This document shows positions 31,065 through 62,157 of a DNA stretch of 64,000 bases, piece by piece. The notes beneath the pieces are model-generated. The model did not search any database. It was given only the letters and a program-made list of their open reading frames with translations, and was not told the DNA's origin. The stretch spans positions 1,821 through 65,820 of the forward strand of contig CAVYHW010000045.1 in NCBI GenBank assembly GCA_963768215.1, written 5' to 3'. Numbering within the stretch: position 1 is the stretch's first letter; each line of letters opens with the position of its first letter. The DNA is from an uncultured Gammaproteobacteria bacterium (GTDB lineage: Bacteria > Pseudomonadota > Gammaproteobacteria > SZUA-229). The position numbers and the translations under genes are program-made.

Positions 31065-32066
31065 TTATATTTTCTGCACGTTTCTCAGGTTTACTACGCT
31101 GGTCAGCAGAAAATAGCGGTAGTCACTCATGCCGCCATAACTCACAGGCGCAGCACCTGCAATTGAAAAAGATTTAGTTGTATCGATGCCTCTCTGCTGC
31201 TCGTTAGAGCGCATCAACAACCAGATTTTTGCAGCATAAACATCTGACCAGTCGTCCACATCATCAGGATCAACATAACGGTCAATTGCTTCATCATTAT
31301 CTACATCGACACCAAATTGCACCTGCAAATCAGAAACACCCGATATCAGTGTTTGATTTTGTAAGGCTGGCCCATTTTCCAGGGCAACACGTCGTAAAGA
31401 TGGAATGCCATCACCTGCTGTATCAGTGTAATCACTTATGTAATAAACATAAGCATGCAGTTCATGGTTCCTGGTCTGCGATGAAGAATCATAAGAATTA
31501 ATGACTGGCTGAGTAGCGCCAACAAAAATCTTTCCATTAATCGCATTGCTGCGAACATAAACCTGGTTAGCTAATAATGCAGCGGGTGGATTAGAGTCTG
31601 CGTAACGTATTTCCAGAATATCAGTGGTATCAACATGGCCTTCATCGACCATACAGCTTGCAGAATATGGATTAGCTGCACTATTATCTGTGGCAAAAAC
31701 AGGTGTCGTTAAATTATAATACCAGCCAACTGCACAGTCCCCTGCAACGGCTCCCGGCAGGTCTTCACCTGCTGAAGATGCAGTACATGCAGCATCACTG
31801 GACTTACAACTGATTAAGGCAGCTTTATTAGTACCACCCCACATGCCAGCATGGCGCAAATCGTAAGAAATCATTTCAATAGCAAAACGCGCATCAGCCA
31901 CCATGTCCATTTGCATTTCGTTTACTGCCTGTGTTTTTCGTGTTGTTGAATGCAATGAAAACGCACCGCTAATAATCACCAGGCCAACAGTCATTGCAAC
32001 CAGTAATTCAACCAGCGAAAAACCATACGATTGTCTGTTCTTTATTTTCATCTCAACCTCTAACAT
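31065..32066 (-). CDS. pilW: PilW-like minor pilin
   Basis: Prepilin motif GFSLVELLVAMTVGLVII. Size and position consistent with PilW. Confidence 0.7.
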   Translation of the reverse strand: MLEVEMKIKNRQSYGFSLVELLVAMTVGLVIISGAFSLHSTTRKTQAVNEMQMDMVADARFAIEMISYDLRHAGMWGGTNKAALISCKSSDAACTASSAGEDLPGAVAGDCAVGWYYNLTTPVFATDNSAANPYSASCMVDEGHVDTTDILEIRYADSNPPAALLANQVYVRSNAINGKIFVGATQPVINSYDSSSQTRNHELHAYVYYISDYTDTAGDGIPSLRRVALENGPALQNQTLISGVSDLQVQFGVDVDNDEAIDRYVDPDDVDDWSDVYAAKIWLLMRSNEQQRGIDTTKSFSIAGAAPVSYGGMSDYRYFLLTSVVNLRNVQKI

Positions 32067-32623
32067 GGAATCTCGGTACAGATATTTGTTGTAGTGGTAT
32101 AAGTCTTGGAAACACTACTAGAGGCACCAGCCGAAGTATCTTTACTACGTTCACTCCAGGTTATATCAATTTTTACTGTTGCCATTTTTGATGGCGCAAC
32201 AGCCGGTGTTACGGTAACAAGCGTTGTTGCTGCACCAGGCAAACCGGCTTTTAAATTCTGCTTCCACCAGTAAACATCATCCTGCGCCAGCTCCGTTTCA
32301 CTGCAATTTTTAGTACCTGTACAGGCACTGTTTACGCCGGCGCCAGCATAAGTCGCCAGCACCGAGGGATTGGCCCGCATGCTTTCAAAGAGCTCGTCAA
32401 CTTTCATCATGGCGACAGAACCATATACTGATGTTTTACCGGCCTGCAGAGAAATAGCCTGCAATGAAGCAATACCCAGCATACCCATAGAAAGAATCAG
32501 AAAACCTATTAAGGCCTCTAACAGGGTAAAGCCCTTGCTGTTGTTTATATGGCAGCTTTTTATATGGCTGTTTTGCCTGTTTATTAGTTTTACAGGTATT
32601 ATTTTTAGGGTTTTTATGGACAT
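32060..32623 (-). CDS. pilV: PilV-like minor pilin
   Basis: Prepilin motif KGFTLLEALIGFLIL. Overlaps pilW by 7 nt. Confidence 0.7.
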   Translation of the reverse strand: MSIKTLKIIPVKLINRQNSHIKSCHINNSKGFTLLEALIGFLILSMGMLGIASLQAISLQAGKTSVYGSVAMMKVDELFESMRANPSVLATYAGAGVNSACTGTKNCSETELAQDDVYWWKQNLKAGLPGAATTLVTVTPAVAPSKMATVKIDITWSERSKDTSAGASSSVSKTYTTTTNICTEIPC

Positions 32624-33204
32624 GAAATCACCGCCGCATTATCAGAGATACGTGCCCGACCTGACAAACTTAATATCACTGCACGAGAATCAAGCGTACT
32701 GCCCGAATCATCCAGACTGCATAAACTGAAAGTACCCGACTGCGAAGCCCCGGCAGCACTTCTAGGCAAGCCACGAGCATTAAAGGTAAACGAACTAATA
32801 TCAGCTCCTCCTGCATTCACACCTGCAACTGTCAACTGGTTGTCAGTAAATGCATCATGCACGCGTAATAAACAATCTGTACCGAGTGCAGCACATGGAG
32901 CGCCGGTGCCCTCAAGGTTACCGTCAGCATCAACAAATACGATCCAGCCATCTTCCCAATTATCTGTGCCGGGGCCGGTACATGATGTACCATTGGTGCT
33001 TTCACATATAGTCACGCTGGTATCAAGTTTAATCGCCTCAGTTCGGGCGAGATGCAAGGCCGAAACCAGTTCATTAGTAGAAGCTATAAGCTGATTGCCC
33101 TGCATAAATGTTTTTAGTGAAGGCAAACCTACCGTAAGCAAAATACTTACGATAGACAGGGTTACCATCAACTCAATCAGCGTAAATCCAGAATGTTTTT
33201 TCAT
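32614..33204 (-). CDS. fimT: FimT/FimU (GspH-family) minor pilin
   Basis: MKKHSGFTLIELMVTLSIVSILL, GspH-like. First gene of the fimT-pilVWXY1E block. Confidence 0.7.
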   Translation of the reverse strand: MKKHSGFTLIELMVTLSIVSILLTVGLPSLKTFMQGNQLIASTNELVSALHLARTEAIKLDTSVTICESTNGTSCTGPGTDNWEDGWIVFVDADGNLEGTGAPCAALGTDCLLRVHDAFTDNQLTVAGVNAGGADISSFTFNARGLPRSAAGASQSGTFSLCSLDDSGSTLDSRAVILSLSGRARISDNAAVISCP

Positions 33205-33331: not shown

Positions 33332-33603
33332 ACTAGGGCGCCTCTGATCAAATCTATTATGTTTCTGGCTTACAGGCTTGTTCGTAATCAAGACAGTATT
33401 TTGAAAGCATGTAGATACCTGGTGAAAAATACTAACGAAGAGTACGGGCAAGCCAGAAAGCCCCTCCGGGCGTGGCCTGAAGGGCACATCTGCCACGTTG
33501 CAAAGCTTGTTAAGGACTAAGGCCATTAACTTCACTTTGCGCCTTGCATCTGCACCCTTCAGGTCACGCAGAAGCATAATAGATTTGATCAGAGGCGCCC
33601 TAG
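33332..33603. mobile_element. 272-bp MITE-like element, copy A (29-bp perfect TIRs CTAGGGCGCCTCTGATCAAATCTATTATG)
   Basis: Near-identical copy at 41847-42117. Internal secondary palindrome (CCTGAAGGGCACATCTGC…GCATCTGCACCCTTCAGG). Confidence 0.8.
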
Positions 33604-33699: not shown

Positions 33700-34248
33700 A
33701 TGAATTTAGACAGAGTCAGTTCAGGCAATAATATTCCTGAGGAAATTAATGTCATCATCGAAATCCCGGCACACAGCGACCCGGTCAAATACGAAGTTGA
33801 TAAAGAAACCGGCGCCATGTTTGTTGACCGTTTCATGAGCACAGCCATGCATTACCCCTGTAACTATGGCTATGTACCTCACACTCTGTCCAAAGACGGT
33901 GACCCTGTTGATGTGCTGGTAACCACACCGGTGCCTTTAATTGCTGGCTCTGTCATTCAATGCCGCCCGGTTGGTGTGCTCAAAATGACCGATGAATCTG
34001 GAGACGATGCCAAGATACTGGCTGTCCCCCTGGATAAACTTTGCAAATCATTTCGTAATGCTAAAACAATAGGCGACATGCAACCCATGCTGCTGGAACA
34101 AATTGCGCACTTTTTTGAACACTATAAAGATCTGGATGAAGGCAAGTGGGTACGTGTGGAAGGCTGGGGCGGCATTGATGAAGCCAAAGAAGAAATTATG
34201 TCCAGTGTTGCCATGTATAAAGAGGCGCCGGTCAAGCCAAACTTCTAA
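33700..34248 (+). CDS. ppa: Inorganic pyrophosphatase
   Basis: Family I PPase motifs ([11 protein letters not shown]…, DGDPVDVLV). Confidence 0.95.
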
Positions 34249-34304
34249 TAAAAATAGTTGTAAGTTTTAAGTAATAAGATGCAAATTAACAAACTTATTA
34301 CTTA

Positions 34305-34550
34305 AAACTTATAACTTATAACACTGCTGTCCCGTTAACTTTTCCGAGAGGTCTACAAGCCATTGTTCTGTCTGGAAGATTTATGTTTATACTAGCCGAG
34401 ACATGGACTGGAACCCGTCGCCCGGGACACGCTGTAAATACCTCCATGTACGCTCGGATGCCGCGTCCATGCGGCATACGGTCCCAGGCGACGGGTTCCA
34501 GTCCACGCCTCTAACAGTTAACGGGACAGCAGTGAACTTATAACTTTAAT
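34305..34550. repeat. ~245-bp nested-palindrome element abutting the 3' end of tRNA-Thr
   Basis: Outer arms ACACTGCTGTCCCGTTAAC / GTTAACGGGACAGCAGTG. Inner arms GGACTGGAACCCGTCGCCCGGGAC / GTCCCAGGCGACGGGTTCCAGTCC. Central GATGCCGC-GTCCAT-GCGGCATAC. Confidence 0.7.
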
Positions 34551-34553
34551 TAT

Positions 34554-34630
34554 TGGTGCCGGAAGGGAGAATCGAACTCCCAACCTCGTCATTACGAGTG
34601 ACTTGCTCTACCAATTGGAGCTATTCCGGC
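34554..34630 (-). tRNA. tRNA-Thr (anticodon CGU)
   Basis: Reverse complement GCCGGAATAGCTCCAATTGGTAGAGCAAGTCACTCGTAATGACGAGGTTGGGAGTTCGATTCTCCCTTCCGGCACCA has a 7-bp acceptor stem, D and T arms (GTTCGATTC), anticodon loop CT-CGT-AA and an encoded CCA. Confidence 0.9.
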
Positions 34631-34650
34631 CTGTTTTAATCTCTAAACTG

Positions 34651-34747
34651 TAGGAGCGGACCAAAATATAATATCAGGGTTCCGCGAATGAGCTGCCAGC
34701 CAATGGCCAATTGCGGAACCCTGATATTATATTTTGGTCCGCTCCTA
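34651..34747. repeat. Perfect 35-bp-stem hairpin element between tRNA-Thr and thiO
   Basis: TAGGAGCGGACCAAAATATAATATCAGGGTTCCGC …27-nt loop… GCGGAACCCTGATATTATATTTTGGTCCGCTCCTA. Confidence 0.7.
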
Positions 34748-34758
34748 CGATTAACTTG

Positions 34759-35847
34759 TTAATGCGGTGCCCGCATTTGATAAGGACGCACATCACACCA
34801 TGGTTCCCTATCCAATACTATATCAGTCATTAATTCTGCTGAAGCCACACCCAGTACAATGCCATTTCTAAAATGCCCTGCATGAATATATAAGCCTTCA
34901 ATATCATCATGCTGACAGATGTAAGGTATGCCTTTTTCAGTACCCGGCCTCAGTCCCGCCCATTGCCTTTCTACCTGCAAATCTGCCAACAAAGGGACCA
35001 GCCTGATGGCAGCCTGATGCAACTCATCAAATGCAGAAGATGAAATTGTTTTATCAAAGCCAATTTTTTCCAGTGTACTGCCCGCCAGTATTCGTCCATC
35101 TTTACGTGGAATAACGTAATGTCCTTCGGACAGGACAATGCGTTTAACAAGGTCAGGCTCGCCTTTATACATAATCATCTGTCCTTTTACCGGGACAACA
35201 TTAACCGATGTCCGGGTGACATTAAACTGCGCACTCCATGCGCCGCTGGCAATAATAATTTTATCAGCAAAAAATGTTTGCTGCTTTGTCCGCACAGCTG
35301 AAACTTTATTATTTTTAACAATTATTTCTTCTACGGTGCAGTGCTCATGATAAGGGACAGACAGGTTTTCTAAAGATGCCTTTAACGCCTGAACAAATTT
35401 TGGGTTTCTTAACTGATTGATGTCAGGCATCCATATGCCTTTGTCTACCTCATTGCCGACCGCCTTTTCAATGGCATGGATCGCACCTATGTCATCTATA
35501 AAGCTGGCATCAACCGACCATTTTTTTGCCCAGTCAGTGATCTGCTGGTTATTGTCTTCAGTAACAGTAAATAAACCGCTGTGAAGCAATTCGCTGTCGA
35601 CACCGGTTTCTTCAAATAGTGTTTGCGTAAATTCAGGATATATTTTTTTGCTGCGCTCAGCCAGAACATTAACTGAATCATCATAAAACCATGGATAAAG
35701 CGGTGAAATAATGCCACCACCAGCCCAGGAAGACTCTCCACCAAGAGGTCCTTTCTCTAATAACAGAACATCCATACCTTCTAAAAATAGCTGGCGCGCA
35801 GTTAATAATCCAATTACGCCGCCACCAACTATGATGCAATCAGGCAT
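34759..35847 (-). CDS. thiO: Glycine oxidase / FAD-dependent oxidoreductase (ThiO-like)
   Basis: N-terminal dinucleotide fold CIIVGGGVIGLLTARQL and DAO-family length. Adjacent to thiS-thiG. Confidence 0.75.
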   Translation of the reverse strand: MPDCIIVGGGVIGLLTARQLFLEGMDVLLLEKGPLGGESSWAGGGIISPLYPWFYDDSVNVLAERSKKIYPEFTQTLFEETGVDSELLHSGLFTVTEDNNQQITDWAKKWSVDASFIDDIGAIHAIEKAVGNEVDKGIWMPDINQLRNPKFVQALKASLENLSVPYHEHCTVEEIIVKNNKVSAVRTKQQTFFADKIIIASGAWSAQFNVTRTSVNVVPVKGQMIMYKGEPDLVKRIVLSEGHYVIPRKDGRILAGSTLEKIGFDKTISSSAFDELHQAAIRLVPLLADLQVERQWAGLRPGTEKGIPYICQHDDIEGLYIHAGHFRNGIVLGVASAELMTDIVLDREPWCDVRPYQMRAPH

Positions 35848-41844: not shown

Positions 41845-41846
41845 AA

Positions 41847-42117
41847 CTAGGGCACCTCTGATTAAGTCTATTATGCTTCTGGCTTACAGGCTTGTTCGTA
41901 ATCAAGGCAGTATTTTGAAAGCATGTAGATACCTGGTGAAAAATACTAACGCAGAGTACGGACAAGCCTGTAAGCCCCACTGGGCGCGGCCTGAAGGATA
42001 CATCTGCCACGTTACAAAGCTTGTTAAGGACTAAGGCCATTAACTTCACTTTGCGCCTTGCATCTGCACCCTTCAGGTCACGCAGAAGCATAATAGACTT
42101 GATCAGAGGTACCCTGG
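41847..42117. mobile_element. 271-bp MITE-like element, copy B
   Basis: ~93% identical to 33332-33603 with the same TIRs. Squeezed between the plsC start and the gmhB stop. Confidence 0.8.
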
Positions 42118-42132
42118 TACTCCGTCAAGATT

Positions 42133-45724: not shown

Positions 45725-45827
45725 GTAAAATCTTATATCTTATTGAATAAAGTACAGATTATAACCTAAGCAAGCTCTAAATTACTGCGCTGGGTGGTGT
45801 TTCCAGCAAAAAAGGGCTATAACTAGT

Positions 45828-46100
45828 ACTCTATCAAGGTGGTTTTGATGATTTCAGCGCTACTGTGGTGTTTCGCAACTAGGCACAGTGCGCAGACAAT
45901 GGCCTTTGTCCTTGTCAAGTACTGTAACACAGGTGCGGAACGCCTCAGTAGCGCCCGAAGGGTTGGTCTGTCAGTATCCATGGCTGCGTTACGCCTCTTG
46001 CAAAGGACTATGGCCATTTGCTGCCCAGATCGTAGGCTTGGGTGCCTTGCCATGAATACTGACAGACCAACTGAAACCATCAAAACCACCTTGATAGAGT
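45828..46100. mobile_element. ~273-bp MITE-like element with 24-bp TIRs (TACTCTATCAAGGTGGTTTTGATG)
   Basis: Perfect outer inverted repeat plus a second inner pair (GGTCTGTCAGTATCCATGG / CCATGAATACTGACAGACC). Different family from the 33332/41847 element. Confidence 0.7.
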
Positions 46101-46129
46101 ACTGGATAAATGCTCAAAAAATCTTCTTA

Positions 46130-48866: not shown

Positions 48867-49075
48867 GCAAAGCTGTGAATCAGAAAAAGGCCAGTCAATG
48901 GGGCTGGCCTTTTTATTGCCTTCACTAAGACGCAAAGCTCGCAAAGAAAAATTGAAACATCTGTGGTCCTTCCTTTGCGAGCTTTGCGCCCTGGCGAGAG
49001 AACATGTATTAGAGCAACCCATGGTCTTTTTATTCAACAGTCATTGAGTTAATCAAATCATTCAGGAGAACAAAC

Positions 49076-51736: not shown

Positions 51737-52318
51737 ATGAAACAGGCTTTATTTCCTTTAAACACCGTACTATTTCCTGGCAGCATCCTGCCATTAAAGA
51801 TATTCGAGCAACGTTATTTAAATTTAATTAAAGACTGCATGAAACAGCAAACGGGGTTTGTCACTGTTTTAATCAGCCAGGGCAAAGAAGTGGGTGCCGC
51901 ACCCAAAATATACTGCGTTGGCTGTTATGTAGAAATAATCGACTGGGAAGCATTGGCCAATGGACTACTGGGCATTAGCGTACAGGCAAAATACCGTGTG
52001 CGATTGTCAAACAGTTCGGTTAGAGATGATGGTCTATTACTGGCTGAAGCAACCCCTTTTGAATCCATGCCGGATATTAAACCCCCTCTGCCAGAAGTTT
52101 TTGGAGCATTCGCTGATACTTTAAAACAGCTGCTAAATCATCCATTTGCGTTACGCTATAAAGATAAAGTCGATTTCAATAACGCTAACGACATTTGCTA
52201 TCGCCTTAGTGAGCTACTACCCATCAGCAATAAACAAAAACAGCTGTTACTGGAATCAGAAACAATAGAACAAATACTTGATCAGCTTGCTTTACACATT
52301 AATGCATTACAAACATAA
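51737..52318 (+). CDS. Lon N-terminal (LON substrate-binding) domain protein
   Basis: LFPLNTVLFPGSILPLKIFEQRY… resembles the Lon-N/PUA-like domain. 193 aa with no ATPase or protease domain. Confidence 0.7.
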   Translation: MKQALFPLNTVLFPGSILPLKIFEQRYLNLIKDCMKQQTGFVTVLISQGKEVGAAPKIYCVGCYVEIIDWEALANGLLGISVQAKYRVRLSNSSVRDDGLLLAEATPFESMPDIKPPLPEVFGAFADTLKQLLNHPFALRYKDKVDFNNANDICYRLSELLPISNKQKQLLLESETIEQILDQLALHINALQT

Positions 52319-52325
52319 GAAATAA

Positions 52326-52456
52326 AAGCTTTTCACCACAGAGGCACAGAGTACACAGAGTTTAATCATTAAATTTGTTAGATGCGCCGTAGGCGCATCT
52401 AACTAAATAATGATTTTACTCTGTGCTCTCTGTGCCTCTGTGGTGAAAAGCTTTTA
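52326..52456. repeat. ~130-bp palindromic REP/MITE-like element, copy 1 (arms AAAGCTTTTCACCACAGAGGCACAGAGTACACAGAG)
   Basis: Near-perfect long hairpin with a palindromic core (GTTAGATGCGCC-GTAG-GCGCATCTAAC). Related copy at 53620-53735. Confidence 0.75.
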
Positions 52457-52496
52457 ATGCTAAAATCACCCGACAATATTAATTGAGGAAATATCA

Positions 52497-53589: not shown

Positions 53590-53618
53590 GACTGTACTGA
53601 GAAATAAGCTTTAAAAAC

Positions 53619-53735
<117 letters not shown>

Positions 53736-53751
53736 TCTTTATGTACTAAAG

Positions 53752-62003: not shown

Positions 62004-62028
62004 TAGCTTTATTTATCCACAGATGAAC

Positions 62029-62157
62029 GCAGATAAGAATTATACATATGCAATTCACATGAGAACCCCGTCACCCTTCACTATCGATCAGGATAACAAC
62101 ACTTTATTAACCTAAAGCTTTTATCGGTGTTTATCTGCGTTCATCTGTGGACAATAA
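62029..62157. repeat. Hairpin element with 24-bp stem (TTATCCACAGATGAACGCAGATAA) and ~77-nt loop
   Basis: Between convergent genes. The stem is too long and the loop too large for a simple terminator. Confidence 0.6.

What the first reader, a model, noticed from the sequence alone, without database searches (positions are those of the whole stretch)
34305..34747. tRNA-Thr(CGU) is sandwiched between two large hairpin elements
Directly 3' of the tRNA lies a ~245-bp nested palindrome at 34305-34550, with outer 19-bp arms and inner 24-bp arms. Directly 5' of it lies a perfect 35-bp stem at 34651-34747. Both are far longer than terminators. tRNA 3' ends are classic integration sites, so the 3' element could be a decayed integrated element. 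The 35-bp stem could function in thiO termination or as tRNA promoter occlusion. Either could also be a structured ncRNA.
Basis: seen in the sequence. Interest (0 to 1): 0.55.

Follow-up and report, generated by a model that had tools for sequence, protein, structure and literature searches.

The report
Two mobile hairpin repeats flank tRNA-Thr
The two big hairpins beside the tRNA-Thr gene are insertions of small mobile repeat elements, a YPAL-type miniature transposon and a REP doublet; the first carries a structured core conserved across Gammaproteobacteria whose two loops look like textbook CsrA binding sites.

Summary
Both hairpins fold far better than shuffled sequence (z about -13).

They are lineage-specific insertions, not ancestral regulatory structures. 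Relatives with 82-86% identical ThiO have thiO, 14-15 nt, then tRNA-Thr, and no 213-bp element between tRNA-Thr and ppa.

**Element A (34322-34534)** is a 213-bp MITE with 22-nt terminal inverted repeats and a 9-bp target duplication (AACTTATAA). Two further copies lie at unrelated loci in other (meta)genomes.
- Its interior is a 114-nt hairpin with a 62-nt core.
- That core occurs in at least 118 gammaproteobacterial genome stretches.
- The same core is found in the Yersinia YPAL/RU-2 repeat, which is Rfam Ysr224.
- The family shows strong covariation.
- Wobble pairs favour the strand that carries two AUGGA hexaloops 23 nt apart, which is the CsrA consensus.
- In the window that strand is the tRNA-Thr strand.

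**Element B (34650-34748)** is an inverted doublet of REP units (GTAGGAGCGGA...TTCCGCGAA) built like Pseudomonas REPs, so it is REPIN-like. The closest relative has a small REP palindrome at the same site.

Both belong to known kinds of element. I found no published description of the wide distribution of the core or of its CsrA-like loops. CsrA binding is untested, and the orientation of copies relative to genes partly argues against it.

The parts
34256..34316 (.). Ancestral AT-rich hairpin. It has 23-nt arms, a 15-nt loop and 20% GC, and starts 7 nt after the ppa stop codon. On the minus strand it is followed by ATTTTTATT. It is probably the shared terminator of ppa and tRNA-Thr, and it is the dyad next to which element A inserted.
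   Evidence: Inverted repeat I3. A homologous stretch is present in relative L130, which lacks the MITE (alignment A3). GC content. The terminator role is inferred; the consensus scan did not call it, because the loop is too long and the stem has few G-C pairs.
34313..34321 (.). Left copy of the 9-bp target-site duplication, AACTTATAA.
   Evidence: Identical 9-mers lie directly outside both terminal inverted repeats. A second copy of the element, L013, has a different perfect 9-bp duplication, AAAATTTAT.
34322..34534 (-). Element A, a 213-bp YPAL-superfamily MITE. The strand given is the one carrying the GGA loops, which is the same strand as tRNA-Thr.
   Evidence: Terminal inverted repeats, target duplication, empty site in L130. 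Two more copies lie at other loci: L013 175-386 and L132 374-586.
34322..34343 (.). Terminal inverted repeat on the ppa side, CACTGCTGTCCCGTTAACTTTT.
   Evidence: I4, 22 nt, 95% complementary. Conserved in L013 and L132. Weak similarity to the left end of Yersinia YPAL, CAGACTGCTGAC...CCCG.
34344..34397 (.). Asymmetric 54-nt segment between the terminal repeat and the inner hairpin. On the GGA strand it lies 3' of the hairpin.
   Evidence: It has no partner arm. It aligns with L013 and L132, and its first part aligns weakly with the 3' tail of YPAL.
34398..34511 (-). Inner hairpin module, 114 nt and 64% GC in a 43% GC window. It consists of a long outer stem enclosing the conserved core.
   Evidence: I2. 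Covariance model R1 scores it 93.5 bits. GC content. Both wobble pairs in its stem are G-U on the minus strand.
34424..34485 (-). The 62-nt conserved core shared with at least 118 gammaproteobacterial genome stretches and with Yersinia YPAL/RU-2 (Rfam Ysr224).
34439..34450 (-). Mini-hairpin BS2. On the minus strand it reads UAC-AUGGAG-GUA, a 3-bp stem closing a hexaloop that holds GGA. It matches the CsrA SELEX consensus RUACARGGAUGU.
   Evidence: Coordinates. The stem covaries across the family as UAC/GUA, UCC/GGA and CCC/GGG. The consensus is taken from PMC7652899.
34460..34475 (-). Hairpin BS1. On the minus strand it reads GCCGC-AUGGAC-GCGGC, a variable stem with a conserved CA-N-GGA-Y-G loop. 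Its GGA lies 23 nt from the GGA of BS2.
   Evidence: Coordinates. 91 of 112 copies carry CANGGANG here, outside the search pattern, and 80 of those 91 at exactly 23 nt. Column statistics.
34513..34534 (.). Terminal inverted repeat on the tRNA side, AACAGTTAACGGGACAGCAGTG.
34535..34543 (.). Right copy of the 9-bp target-site duplication, AACTTATAA, 10 nt from the tRNA 3' end.
34554..34630 (-). tRNA-Thr(CGU) gene, intact, with the CCA end encoded.
   Evidence: ARAGORN; Rfam tRNA 59.5 bits.
34650..34748 (.). Element B, a 99-bp inverted doublet of REP units (REPIN-like). It has a 36-bp perfect stem and lies 10 nt after the thiO stop codon and 19 nt before the tRNA 5' end.
   Evidence: Related units occur in L126, L127 and L130. 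The unit format matches Pseudomonas REP classes.
34650..34690 (+). REP unit 1, GTAG-GA-GCGGACC-(15 nt)-GGTTCCGC-GAATG.
34708..34748 (-). REP unit 2, in inverted orientation: GTAG-GA-GCGGACC-(15 nt)-GGTTCCGC-AATTG.

Best explanation
The two hairpins are independent insertions of two unrelated kinds of small non-autonomous repeat element into the short spacers of an ancestral thiO / tRNA-Thr / terminator hairpin / ppa arrangement.

**Element A**
- It is a 213-bp MITE with 22-nt terminal inverted repeats and a 9-bp target duplication. These features suggest mobilisation in trans by an unidentified DDE-type transposase (inferred).
- It landed next to a dyad, between the tRNA and the terminator-like hairpin.
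- Its interior is a long hairpin with a 62-nt core. The core belongs to a superfamily spread across Gammaproteobacteria. The only described members of that superfamily are the Yersinia palindromic sequences (YPAL/RU-2), catalogued in Rfam as Ysr224.
- The core is kept as a single-strand structure with three parts: an outer stem, one hairpin with a variable stem, and one 3-bp mini-hairpin. Both hairpins end in an A-N-GGA-N hexaloop.

**Element B**
- It is an inverted pair of REP units, each with a GTAG head followed by a GC-clamped imperfect palindrome. This is the REPIN arrangement, which in other bacteria is mobilised by RAYT transposases (inferred here).

**Consequences in this locus (inferred)**
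- Both elements lie inside the thiO-tRNA-Thr transcription unit.
- Element B gives a 36-bp RNA duplex between thiO and the tRNA. That could act as a 3' end barrier or an RNase III site.
- Element A is transcribed as the tRNA 3' trailer in the orientation that exposes the two GGA loops.
For: **Insertions, not ancestral**
- L001 (ThiO 82% identical) and L131 (84%) have thiO stop, 14-15 nt, then tRNA-Thr.
- L130 (86%) has only an 82-nt tRNA-ppa spacer containing the homologue of the AT-rich hairpin. The alignment shows a clean gap where the MITE sits in the window.

**Element A is a MITE**
- It has terminal inverted repeats and an identical flanking 9-mer.
- L013 carries a second copy at another locus with a different perfect 9-bp duplication.
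- L132 carries a third copy.
- The three copies align end to end.

**The core belongs to a superfamily**
- A 20-base core pattern hits at least 118 genome stretches, nearly all labelled as Gammaproteobacteria.
- A profile search of those loci gives 164 hits at E <= 1e-3, 35 of them without the exact search pattern.

**The structure is real**
- 27 of 28 predicted pairs show compensatory changes.
- 90.2% of cells are paired, against 58.7% in shuffles and 34-42% when partners are slid.
- The covariation score is 0.774 against 0.185 in shuffles.

**Link to YPAL and Ysr224**
- Family members score 29-43 bits against RF02770.
- My model R1 scores a Yersinia plasmid copy that was not used to build it at 72 bits.
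- The published Y. pestis RU-2 sequence contains the same core.
- Like YPAL, the window and L013 copies sit next to dyads and make target duplications (for YPAL properties).

**Element B is a REP doublet**
- Each arm starts with GTAG, followed by GAGCGGA...TTCCGCGAA.
- This is the same format as Pseudomonas REP classes GTAGGAGCGAGCyyGCTCGCGA and GTAGGAGCyGGCTTGCCrGCGAA, and as the reverse complement of the P. putida REP.
- Related units occur singly or as a doublet in L126 and L127.
- A 28-nt version sits at the same site in L130.
Against: - No transposase was found for either element. The window has no ORF of 100 aa or more with an HUH motif, and no protein family recurs next to core copies in the fetched loci.
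- Each element occurs only once in the 64-kb window, so multi-copy status in the source genome is not shown.
- The L132 copy of element A has no clean target duplication.
- Most simple hairpin members of the superfamily show no detectable target duplication or terminal repeats. The way the core itself spreads is therefore unclear.
- The window core fails the Rfam gathering score for Ysr224, at 21.1 bits against 70.
- Element A differs from described YPAL in length and in having true terminal repeats.
Confidence: 0.85

Rival explanations
1. The conserved core of element A, and of the whole YPAL-like superfamily, is a CsrA/RsmA-binding RNA module. When transcribed in the GGA sense, its two AUGGA hexaloops 23 nt apart are bridged by one CsrA dimer. 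Dispersed copies would then titrate CsrA or place neighbouring transcripts under Csr control. In the window the module would be produced as the 3' trailer of tRNA-Thr.
For: **Match to the CsrA consensus**
- Both loops fit CA-N-GGA-N-G. BS2 reads UACAUGGANGUA against the SELEX consensus RUACARGGAUGU, a hexaloop closed by AC/GU pairs. A CsrA dimer bridges sites 10-63 nt apart, with an optimum above 18 nt (PMC7652899).
- In vivo, CsrA binds AUGGA in apical loops (PMC5207318).

**Conservation pattern**
- Outside the search pattern, 91 of 112 copies carry CANGGANG. In 80 of those 91 the GGA lies exactly 23 nt from the other GGA.
- In BS1, GGA is present in 78 of 78 aligned copies. The flanking C, A and G are each present in 74-76 of 78. 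The N position and the stem are free to vary.
- The BS2 stem covaries while its loop is kept.

**Strand evidence**
- Wobble pairs in the outer stem favour the GGA strand: 98 G-U against 30 A-C, p = 1.3e-9; counted by copy, 38 against 11.
- In the window the GGA strand is the tRNA strand, and the module lies upstream of the terminator-like hairpin.
Against: - Copies next to a single gene 3' end are more often in the opposite (UCC) sense, 37 against 19.
- Rfam models Ysr224 on the UCC strand.
- The BS1 stem shows no wobble bias (about 8 G-U against 12 A-C, counted by hand).
- The module has only two GGA sites, no promoter or terminator of its own, and no hit to the CsrB, RsmY or RsmZ models.
- No paper was found linking YPAL, REP or MITE elements to CsrA.
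- Binding itself cannot be tested here.
Confidence: 0.25
2. The core hairpin is a DNA-level signal. It would be a single-stranded DNA structure recognised by a transposase or by a host replication or repair protein during mobilisation, as with IS200/IS605 ends or REP with RAYT. The GGA loops would be protein contacts unrelated to CsrA.
For: - Most copies are bare hairpins of 105-125 nt with no target duplication, like REP and IS200-type elements.
- The strand asymmetry of G-T pairs would also fit a single active DNA strand.
- Close pairs strongly prefer one relative orientation, 16 against 2.
- 8 of 69 copies sit inside a further outer inverted repeat specific to that copy, against 1 of 333 in controls. 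Yersinia YPAL duplicates whole terminator hairpins. Both suggest that palindromes are targeted.
Against: - No recurrent neighbouring transposase gene was found, and no HUH-motif ORF in the window.
- The window-type element moves with classic terminal repeats and a 9-bp duplication, which points to a DDE enzyme acting on the ends rather than on the core.
- The near-identity of the loops across distant orders would need an equally conserved, widespread partner protein.
Confidence: 0.2
3. Both hairpins are ancestral cis-regulatory structures of the thiO-tRNA-ppa locus, such as a terminator, an attenuator or promoter occlusion, rather than mobile DNA.
For: - Both lie in transcribed spacers.
- Element B starts 10 nt after the thiO stop codon.
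- A small REP palindrome is present at the same site in L130.
Against: - Both are absent from L001 and L131, and element A is absent from L130.
- Copies of both element types occur at unrelated loci.
- Neither hairpin matches a terminator consensus.
Confidence: 0.03
4. Element A is the scar of an integrase-mediated island or prophage that used the tRNA-Thr 3' end as its attachment site.
For: It lies 3' of a tRNA gene, and tRNA 3' ends are a classic integration target (established knowledge).
Against: - The flanking repeat is an AT-rich 9-mer that starts 10 nt beyond the tRNA, not a copy of the tRNA 3' end.
- The element is only 213 bp, palindromic and non-coding.
- The neighbouring gene is ppa, not an integrase.
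- The other copies, L013 and L132, are not next to tRNA genes. Among about 150 core copies in the fetched loci, only the window copy is next to a genuine tRNA gene.
Confidence: 0.02
5. Element B is a MITE of the IS630/Tc1-mariner type with a TA target duplication (TA|GGAGCGG...CCGCTCC|TA), not a REP doublet.
For: - The element can be read as flanked by TA on both sides.
- The window holds other MITE-like elements.
Against: - The TA is part of a GTAG...CTAC head found in every related unit, including single units that are not doublets (L127, L130).
- The unit has the format of Pseudomonas REPs that are cognate to RAYT transposases.
Confidence: 0.07

Closest known systems
YPAL / RU-2 (Yersinia palindromic sequences; De Gregorio et al. 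2006, Delihas 2007), catalogued as Rfam RF02770 Ysr224
   Same: - It has the same roughly 55-nt core...CCAAGGAUGG...GAGCCUACAUGGAUGUAUUUACGGCG....
- The core likewise sits at the top of a long stem-loop with compensatory changes.
- It is a non-coding intergenic repeat.
- It makes target duplications of variable length and inserts next to or across dyads (the Yersinia copy L129 duplicates an 18-bp terminator hairpin).
- Filled and empty sites differ between relatives.
- The left end is weakly similar: CAGACTGCTGAC against CACTGCTGTC.
   Different: - Element A is 213 bp, not 168 bp.
- It has true 22-nt terminal inverted repeats and an extra 3' segment of about 50 nt.
- Its outer stem sequence is unrelated.
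- Its host is an uncultured marine-type gammaproteobacterium with 43% GC, not Yersinia or Pectobacterium.
- It fails the Rfam gathering score, at 21 bits against 70.
- Rfam models the opposite strand to the one favoured by the wobble pairs.
- The wide distribution seen here (Marinobacter, Lysobacterales, Cellvibrionales, Nitrococcus, Thiotrichaceae and others) is not part of the published descriptions I could read.
REP / REPIN elements with RAYT transposases (E. coli REP/BIME; Pseudomonas REPs of Aranda-Olmedo 2002, Nunvar 2013; REPINs of Bertels and Rainey 2011, the last from my own knowledge)
   Same: - Element B's arms have a 5' GTAG followed by GAGC, an imperfect GC-clamped palindrome and GCGAA/T. 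This is the same format as PF3, PF18 and the P. putida REP.
- The two units are inverted and form one long hairpin.
- The location is extragenic, just after a stop codon.
   Different: - Each unit has an unusually long AT-rich interior of 15 nt, so the doublet makes a 36-bp perfect stem.
- The copy number seen is very low: one in the window, three related loci elsewhere.
- No RAYT gene was found or could be searched for in the source genome.
Csr/Rsm antagonist sRNAs (CsrB, CsrC, RsmX/Y/Z) and dual-site CsrA targets such as the glgC leader
   Same: - GGA is presented in apical hexaloops of short hairpins with the A-N-GGA context.
- Two sites lie at a distance that one CsrA dimer can bridge.
   Different: - There are two sites, not 5-22.
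- There is no dedicated GacA/UvrY-type promoter or terminator.
- The module is carried on a mobile repeat inside a long stem.
- It gives no hit to the Rfam models of these sRNAs.
- Binding is untested.
ERIC/IRU, Correia/NEMIS, RUP and other bacterial MITEs
   Same: Small, non-coding, palindromic, intergenic elements with terminal inverted repeats and target duplication. They are co-transcribed with neighbouring genes.
   Different: - Those families typically duplicate TA and have AT-rich bodies.
- Element A duplicates 9 bp and has a GC-rich, deeply conserved structured core.
- There is no sequence similarity.
tRNA 3' external transcribed spacer acting as an RNA sponge (3'ETS-leuZ of E. coli; my own knowledge, not checked here)
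   Same: A structured RNA released from a tRNA 3' trailer could act in trans by sequestering a regulator.
   Different: 3'ETS-leuZ sponges base-pairing sRNAs, not CsrA, and it is not a mobile element. The analogy is a lead only.

Membership tests
YPAL / RU-2 = Rfam RF02770 Ysr224 | Shares the conserved core sequence of the family | tested here: met
   The published Y. pestis RU-2 contains GCGCCAAGGATGGCGCGGCTCGAGCCTACATGGATGTATTTACGGCG. Model R1, built without Yersinia sequences, scores the Yersinia copy L129 at 72 bits and the window at 93.5 bits.
YPAL / RU-2 = Rfam RF02770 Ysr224 | Reaches the Rfam gathering score of RF02770 (70 bits) | tested here: not met
   Window 34381-34484 (+) scores 21.1 bits, E = 0.12. 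Other non-Yersinia members score 29-43 bits.
YPAL / RU-2 = Rfam RF02770 Ysr224 | Long stem-loop with internal inverted repeats kept by compensatory change | tested here: met
   (27 of 28 pairs covary; 90% of cells paired). YPAL itself is reported with RNAz P = 1.00 and compensatory mutations.
YPAL / RU-2 = Rfam RF02770 Ysr224 | Target-site duplication of variable length (3-26 bp), with the target next to or across a dyad | tested here: met
   The window has a 9-bp AACTTATAA duplication that overlaps the end of the 23-nt-arm hairpin at 34256-34316. L013 has a 9-bp AAAATTTAT duplication 18 nt from a GTAG palindrome. L132 has none.
YPAL / RU-2 = Rfam RF02770 Ysr224 | About 168 bp, with inverted repeats internal rather than terminal | tested here: not met
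   Element A is 213 bp and has 22-nt terminal inverted repeats.
YPAL / RU-2 = Rfam RF02770 Ysr224 | Many copies per genome | tested here: inconclusive
   One copy in the 64-kb window. The source genome could not be scanned. Relatives L002 (at a contig end), L013 and L132 each carry one.
MITE (generic) | Terminal inverted repeats, target-site duplication, small size, no coding capacity, filled and empty sites | tested here: met
   The only ORF across it is a 53-aa ORF in the mechanical ORF list, which I take to be spurious.
MITE (generic) | A cognate full-length IS with the same terminal repeats | tested here: inconclusive
   The terminal-repeat pattern was found only in L013 among the fetched loci and not in viral contigs. 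No plasmid match.
REP / REPIN | Conserved 5' GTAG (or GTGG) tetranucleotide followed by an imperfect palindrome | tested here: met
   Both arms read GTAG-GA-GCGGACC-N15-GGTTCCGC. The format matches the REP tables of PMC3686654 and the P. putida REP.
REP / REPIN | Two units in inverted orientation forming one hairpin | tested here: met
   L126 has the same arrangement.
REP / REPIN | Numerous extragenic copies in the genome | tested here: inconclusive
   Only one in the window. The metagenome scan gave two true relatives among 8 hits. There is also one at the syntenic site of L130.
REP / REPIN | A RAYT (Y1/HUH transposase) gene flanked by the cognate REPs | not testable with these tools
   The window has no ORF of 100 aa or more with an HUH motif. 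The rest of the source genome is not available.
Csr/Rsm-binding RNA | GGA in an apical loop within an A-N-GGA context, with at least two sites 10-63 nt apart | tested here: met
   for the sequences; for the criteria.
Csr/Rsm-binding RNA | Independent sRNA gene with many GGA repeats, its own promoter and its own terminator | tested here: not met
   Two GGA sites only. No promoter or terminator was called in or beside the element. No Rfam hit to CsrB, CsrC or RsmX/Y/Z.
Csr/Rsm-binding RNA | Physical binding by CsrA and a regulatory effect | not testable with these tools
   Needs EMSA, CLIP and genetics.
tRNA-targeted integrative element | Direct repeat of the tRNA 3' end at the far junction, and an integrase gene | tested here: not met
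   The only flanking repeat is the AT-rich 9-mer outside the tRNA. The neighbouring gene is ppa.

The most novel reading that the evidence does not exclude
The YPAL-like hairpin core is a mobile, dispersed CsrA/RsmA-binding module.
- Hundreds of copies per lineage across Gammaproteobacteria would each present two optimal AUGGA hexaloops.
- Together they would form a distributed CsrA sponge, or a way of wiring new transcripts into the Csr regulon. This could include clades such as the Lysobacterales; from memory only, I do not recall a classical Csr antagonist sRNA having been described for that order.
- In this window the module would be delivered as the 3' trailer of tRNA-Thr.
- The under-representation of GGA-sense copies downstream of genes would then reflect selection against uncontrolled CsrA titration.
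Probability: 0.25. Interest if true: 0.8.

Novelty: new variant of a known kind. Interest (0 to 1): 0.5.

Why it matters
For the locus itself the result is ordinary. Two selfish repeats landed in the spacers around a tRNA gene. That explains the odd hairpins without invoking new regulation or a decayed island.

Three wider points came out of the follow-up.
- The repeat known as YPAL, or the "sRNA" Ysr224, in Yersinia is one branch of a structured element spread through many orders of Gammaproteobacteria. It sometimes rides inside different outer inverted repeats.
- Its most conserved features are two hairpin loops that match the CsrA recognition motif in sequence, loop size and spacing. The variable positions fall on the N positions of the consensus.
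- A strand asymmetry of wobble pairs shows that one strand is under structural constraint.

If CsrA binds these modules, repeat elements would be a hidden layer of the Csr/Rsm network. The many genome annotations of "Ysr224 sRNA" would then need re-reading. If it does not bind, the deep conservation of the core still calls for a partner, and the covariance model built here gives a way to census the family.

Tried and rejected
**Rfam**
- A scan of the region found only the tRNA above threshold. The miRNA hits are artefacts of long hairpins.

**Locating the source contig**
- The exact ThiO protein is not on record, although a 100% identical cluster representative exists.

**Literature searches**
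- The core sequence string gave 0 papers.
- CsrA/RsmA combined with MITE, REP or mobile-element terms gave nothing relevant.
- The Alcanivorax sRNA paper is unrelated.
- CsrA combined with Ysr and Yersinia gave no link.

**Other collections**
- Viral contigs hold none of the element B arm, the element A terminal repeat or the core.
- Plasmids: the core occurs only in two Yersinia records; elements A and B have no match.
- E. coli genomes hold no core.

**Target duplications around bare hairpin copies**
- None exceeded chance 3-mers.

**Search for a transposase**
- No recurrent transposase lies near core copies. The recurrent neighbours are housekeeping genes at orthologous loci.
- No HUH-motif ORF of 100 aa or more in the window.

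**csrA**
- Not present in the window or the fetched loci, which is uninformative.

**tRNA association of the core**
- The only other case, a "tRNA-Leu" beside the core in L015, is an ARAGORN false positive. It is absent from three orthologous loci and is not tRNA-like.

**Promoter and terminator scan**
- Nothing useful. The one promoter-like hit is inside element B, on the strand antisense to thiO.

**Single-sequence fold**
- The minimum-energy fold of the window module does not show the two small hairpins. The consensus fold of 78 copies does.

**Ideas rejected**
- Integron attC sites were considered because tandem copies share a strand. I rejected this because there are no R'/R'' boxes, the centre is conserved rather than the ends, and the context is intergenic between ordinary genes.
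- Mutational bias as the cause of the wobble asymmetry was considered. I rejected it because deamination of the more often sense or leading strand would give the opposite sign (reasoning).
Full report
**1. The observation**

The tRNA-Thr(CGU) gene lies at 34554-34630 on the minus strand. It sits between ppa (33700-34248, +) and thiO (34759-35847, -).

On its 3' side there is a nested palindrome:
- Outer arms are 34322-34343 and 34513-34534, 22 nt and 95% complementary.
- Inner arms are 34398-34428 and 34481-34511, 31 nt and 90% complementary.

On its 5' side there is a hairpin at 34650-34748. The stem is perfect over 36 bp and 95% complementary over 41 nt.

Both fold about 13 standard deviations better than dinucleotide shuffles. 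The arm sequences occur nowhere else in the window.

**2. Both large hairpins are insertions**

ThiO homologues gave four syntenic loci from relatives.
- In L001 (82% identity) and L131 (84%), the thiO stop codon is followed after 14-15 nt by tRNA-Thr(CGU).
- L001 then has a small hairpin and the end of ppa. Its whole thiO-ppa spacer is 150 bp, against 510 bp in the window.
- In L130 (86%, GCA_030613475.1), the tRNA-ppa spacer is 82 nt. It aligns with the window's AT-rich hairpin region and shows a clean gap where the 3' element lies.
- Between thiO and the tRNA, L130 has one 28-nt palindrome, GTAGGAGCGGAATAAACTCCGCTGATAC. It is followed by AGTTTAG, as in the window.

Element A is therefore absent from all three syntenic relatives. 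Element B is absent from two, and is represented by a minimal version in the closest.

**3. Element A is a MITE**

- Identical 9-mers (AACTTATAA, 34313-34321 and 34535-34543) lie directly outside the 22-nt terminal inverted repeats.
- A second copy sits in a different genome (L013, a gammaproteobacterial MAG, 175-386). It lies at an unrelated locus and is flanked by a different perfect 9-mer, AAAATTTAT.
- A third copy (L132, 374-586) was found through a spurious ORF. It lies downstream of a Calx-beta protein gene and has no clean duplication.
- The three copies align end to end.
- In the window and in L013 the insertion is next to a dyad: the AT-rich hairpin in the window and a GTAG...CTAC palindrome in L013.

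No transposase was identified. The 9-bp duplication and the terminal repeats point to a DDE enzyme acting in trans; this is an inference.

**4. The inside of element A belongs to a large family**

By chance, the end of contig L002 carried a hairpin whose 62-nt centre aligns without gaps to window 34424-34485, while its long stem is unrelated.
The hosts include Marinobacter, Stenotrophomonas, Lysobacter, Thermomonas, Arenimonas, Nitrococcus, Rheinheimera, Microbulbifer, Alcanivorax, Cellvibrionales, Thiotrichaceae MAGs, Kalamiella and others.
- A profile search of those loci gave 164 hits at E <= 1e-3, including 35 divergent copies that lack the exact pattern.
- Typical members are hairpins of 105-125 nt with a median 25-28 bp outer stem.
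- The stem differs from copy to copy, even among four copies in one 8-kb locus (L068), yet stays complementary.

On an alignment of 78 copies, RNAalifold predicts three parts: the outer stem, a hairpin with a variable stem (BS1), and a 3-bp mini-hairpin (BS2). 27 of 28 pairs show compensatory changes.

Pair counting:

| Measure | Observed | Shuffled | Partners slid |
|---|---|---|---|
| Cells paired | 90.2% | 58.7% | 34-42% |
| Double-sided changes | 724 | 218 | 159-253 |
| Covariation score | 0.774 | 0.185 | 0.109-0.187 |

This is a genuine single-strand structure.

**5. What the family is**

Rfam gives sub-threshold hits to RF02770, Ysr224 ("Yersinia sRNA 224").
- The window scores 21 bits and other members 29-43 bits, against a gathering score of 70.
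- Ysr224 is reported as a multi-copy, temperature-responsive Yersinia sRNA and as one of the most frequently annotated "sRNAs".
- The published 168-nt RU-2 (YPAL) repeat of Y. pestis contains the same core.
- My covariance model, built without Yersinia sequences, scores a Yersinia plasmid copy at 72 bits.

YPAL is described as follows:
- an intergenic palindromic mobile element of about 168 bp, found in Yersinia and Erwinia carotovora;
- internal inverted repeats and target duplications of 3-26 bp;
- targets at or beside dyads;
- co-transcribed with upstream genes.

The plasmid copy shows this behaviour: it is flanked by an 18-bp duplicated terminator hairpin.

Element A shares the core, the dyad-adjacent target and a weakly similar left end. 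It differs in length and in having true terminal repeats and an extra 3' segment. I therefore file it as a variant within a YPAL superfamily, not as a YPAL proper. It fails Rfam's threshold and the length and terminus criteria.

In 8 of 69 copies elsewhere, the hairpin also sits inside a further inverted repeat specific to that copy, against 1 of 333 in controls. Nested palindromes therefore recur in the family.

**6. Which strand, and what the core looks like**

Non-Watson-Crick positions in the outer stems are G-U on one strand three times more often than on the other.
- Counted over all positions: 98 against 30, p = 1.3e-9.
- Counted by copy: 38 against 11.
- An independent count gave 125 against 44.

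On that favoured strand the two small hairpins present A-N-GGA-N hexaloops.
- BS2 reads UAC-AUGGAN-GUA. Its stem covaries as UAC/GUA, UCC/GGA and CCC/GGG while the loop is kept.
- BS1 lies outside my search pattern, so its conservation is unbiased. Its loop is C(76/78) A(74) N G(78) G(78) A(78) Y G(76), on a stem with almost no sequence conservation.
- 91 of 112 copies carry CANGGANG in BS1. In 80 of those 91 the GGA lies exactly 23 nt from the BS2 GGA.

These features match the CsrA/RsmA binding site in four respects:
- the SELEX consensus RUACARGGAUGU;
- GGA in a six-base loop closed by AC/GU pairs;
- AUGGA in apical loops in vivo;
- one dimer bridging two sites 10-63 nt apart.

In the window this strand is the minus strand, the same strand as tRNA-Thr. 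The module lies between the tRNA 3' end and the AT-rich hairpin, which on the minus strand is followed by AUUUUUAUU. It is therefore probably part of the tRNA primary transcript in the GGA sense (inferred).

**7. Evidence against the CsrA reading**

- With gene calls filtered by codon-position GC, copies beside a single gene 3' end are more often in the opposite sense, 37 against 19. Counting every adjacent 3' end gives 48 against 30. A cruder ORF count agrees in direction.
- Rfam models Ysr224 on that opposite strand.
- The BS1 stem shows no wobble bias.
- Close pairs prefer one relative orientation, 16 against 2. That orientation puts the UCC version first for transcripts entering from either side.
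- The module has no promoter or terminator of its own and only two GGA sites.
- No paper links these repeats to CsrA.

One reconciling idea is that GGA-sense copies in mRNAs are selected against precisely because they bind CsrA. That is speculation. A DNA-level role of the hairpin in mobilisation is a live rival. It fits the lack of target duplications around bare copies, but no partner enzyme was found.

**8. Element B**

Each arm reads GTAG-GA-GCGGACC-(15 nt)-GGTTCCGC-GAA/AAT.
- A metagenome scan for the two GC clamps returned eight hits. Six are chance matches in GC-rich coding sequence. Two are true relatives.
- L126 has an inverted pair: GTAGGAGCGGACC...GGTTCCGCGAT plus GTAGGAGCGGATTTTATTCCGC. 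It sits 13 nt after a stop codon.
- L127 has a single unit.
- L130's 28-nt palindrome at the syntenic site is the same head joined directly to its inverted copy.

The unit format is that of the RAYT-associated REP classes of Pseudomonas and of the P. putida REP read on the other strand. That format is a GTAG tetranucleotide, GAGC, a GC-clamped imperfect palindrome, then GCGAA/T.

Element B is therefore an inverted REP doublet, that is, REPIN-like. The alternative of a TA-duplicating IS630-type MITE is unlikely, because the TA belongs to the GTAG head that is also present in single units.

The copy number and a cognate RAYT gene could not be assessed. There is one copy in the window and no HUH-motif ORF there.

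Functionally, a 36-bp RNA duplex that begins 10 nt after the thiO stop codon and ends 19 nt before the tRNA could protect the thiO 3' end or be cut by RNase III. From published work that I recall but did not check here (Liang, Rudd and Deutscher 2015), REPs within about 15 nt of a stop codon can also lower expression of the upstream gene.

**9. Setting**

The window has 43% GC, and the module has 64%. The window holds several other palindromic repeats, so this genome is rich in small mobile elements. Neither element occurs in viral contigs or E. coli genomes. In plasmids the core occurs only in two Yersinia records.

**10. Verdict**

The finding is real and is explained by known kinds of element: a YPAL-superfamily MITE and a REP doublet. 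Both inserted recently, and neither insertion involved the tRNA as an attachment site.

I found no published description of three things:
- the breadth of the YPAL-like core across Gammaproteobacteria;
- its modular association with different outer repeats;
- the match of its two invariant loops to the CsrA site on the structurally favoured strand.

I put 0.85 on the mobile-repeat identity and about 0.25 on CsrA binding being the selected function of the core.

Noticed in passing
window 33333-33603 and 41846-42118: Two copies, 94% identical, of another MITE-like element of about 271 bp. It has 35-nt terminal inverted repeats (ACTAGGGCGCCTCTGATCAAATCTATTATG...) and an internal hairpin. The first copy lies between the pilin gene cluster and ppa, only 100 bp upstream of the ppa start.
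   Followed up: partly
window 52318-52461 and 53615-53740: Two palindromic elements with 49-54 nt arms that share the motif CACCACAGAGGCACAGAGTACACAGAG. They appear to be another repeat family.
   Followed up: no
window 45820-46108: A 289-bp element with 38-nt terminal inverted repeats (TAACTAGTACTCTATCAAGGTGGTTTTGATGATTTCAG) and an inner 23-nt inverted repeat. This is another nested palindrome.
   Followed up: no
window 62013-62154 and 48922-48997: Further inverted repeats: 24-nt arms 94 nt apart, and 28-nt arms 20 nt apart. They were not characterised.
   Followed up: no
L013 114-147: A GTAG...CTAC palindrome (GTAGGGTGGGCACAAAATAACGTGCCCACCCTAC), REP-like but of a different class from element B. 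It lies 18 nt from the target duplication of the L013 copy of element A.
   Followed up: partly
L129 (Yersinia similis plasmid NZ_CP007231.1) 1419-1622: A 168-bp YPAL on a conjugative IncFII plasmid, between a hypothetical-protein gene and a GNAT acetyltransferase gene. It is flanked by an 18-bp direct repeat that is itself a terminator hairpin (AACCGCCTTTATGGCGGT). It is unannotated in the record.
   Followed up: partly
L088, L106, L015, L080 (Lysobacterales); also L059/L099, L064, L110, L116 and others: Core hairpins often occur as pairs 60-360 bp apart with their GGA strands pointing away from each other, 16 cases against 2 for the converse. One such pair is conserved at an orthologous locus in four Lysobacterales species, with a small hairpin (GTTGTTGCTTT...AAAGCAACAGC) between the two copies.
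   Followed up: partly
L068 4840-5125: Two tandem core hairpins between convergent genes. Each is followed by a conserved tail, CAACTTTTRGATYAATGCCT, so in this lineage the repeat unit extends beyond the hairpin.
   Followed up: no
L015 7036-7124: ARAGORN calls an 89-nt tRNA-Leu(GAG) that abuts a core hairpin. It is absent from three orthologous loci and does not look like a tRNA, so it is probably a false positive produced by the hairpin arm.
   Followed up: yes
window 30536-33204: A minus-strand cluster of ORFs whose N-terminal sequences look like type IV pilins (I read them as FimU/PilV/PilW/PilX-like minor pilins; no domain search was run). It lies upstream of ppa. thiS and thiG follow thiO after an ORF of 334 aa that I could not assign.
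   Followed up: no
window 34759-35847: The exact-sequence look-up did not find the window's ThiO, although a 100% identical cluster representative (P0001, on a contig of 89,870 bp) is in the protein collection. The source contig could therefore not be retrieved.
   Followed up: partly
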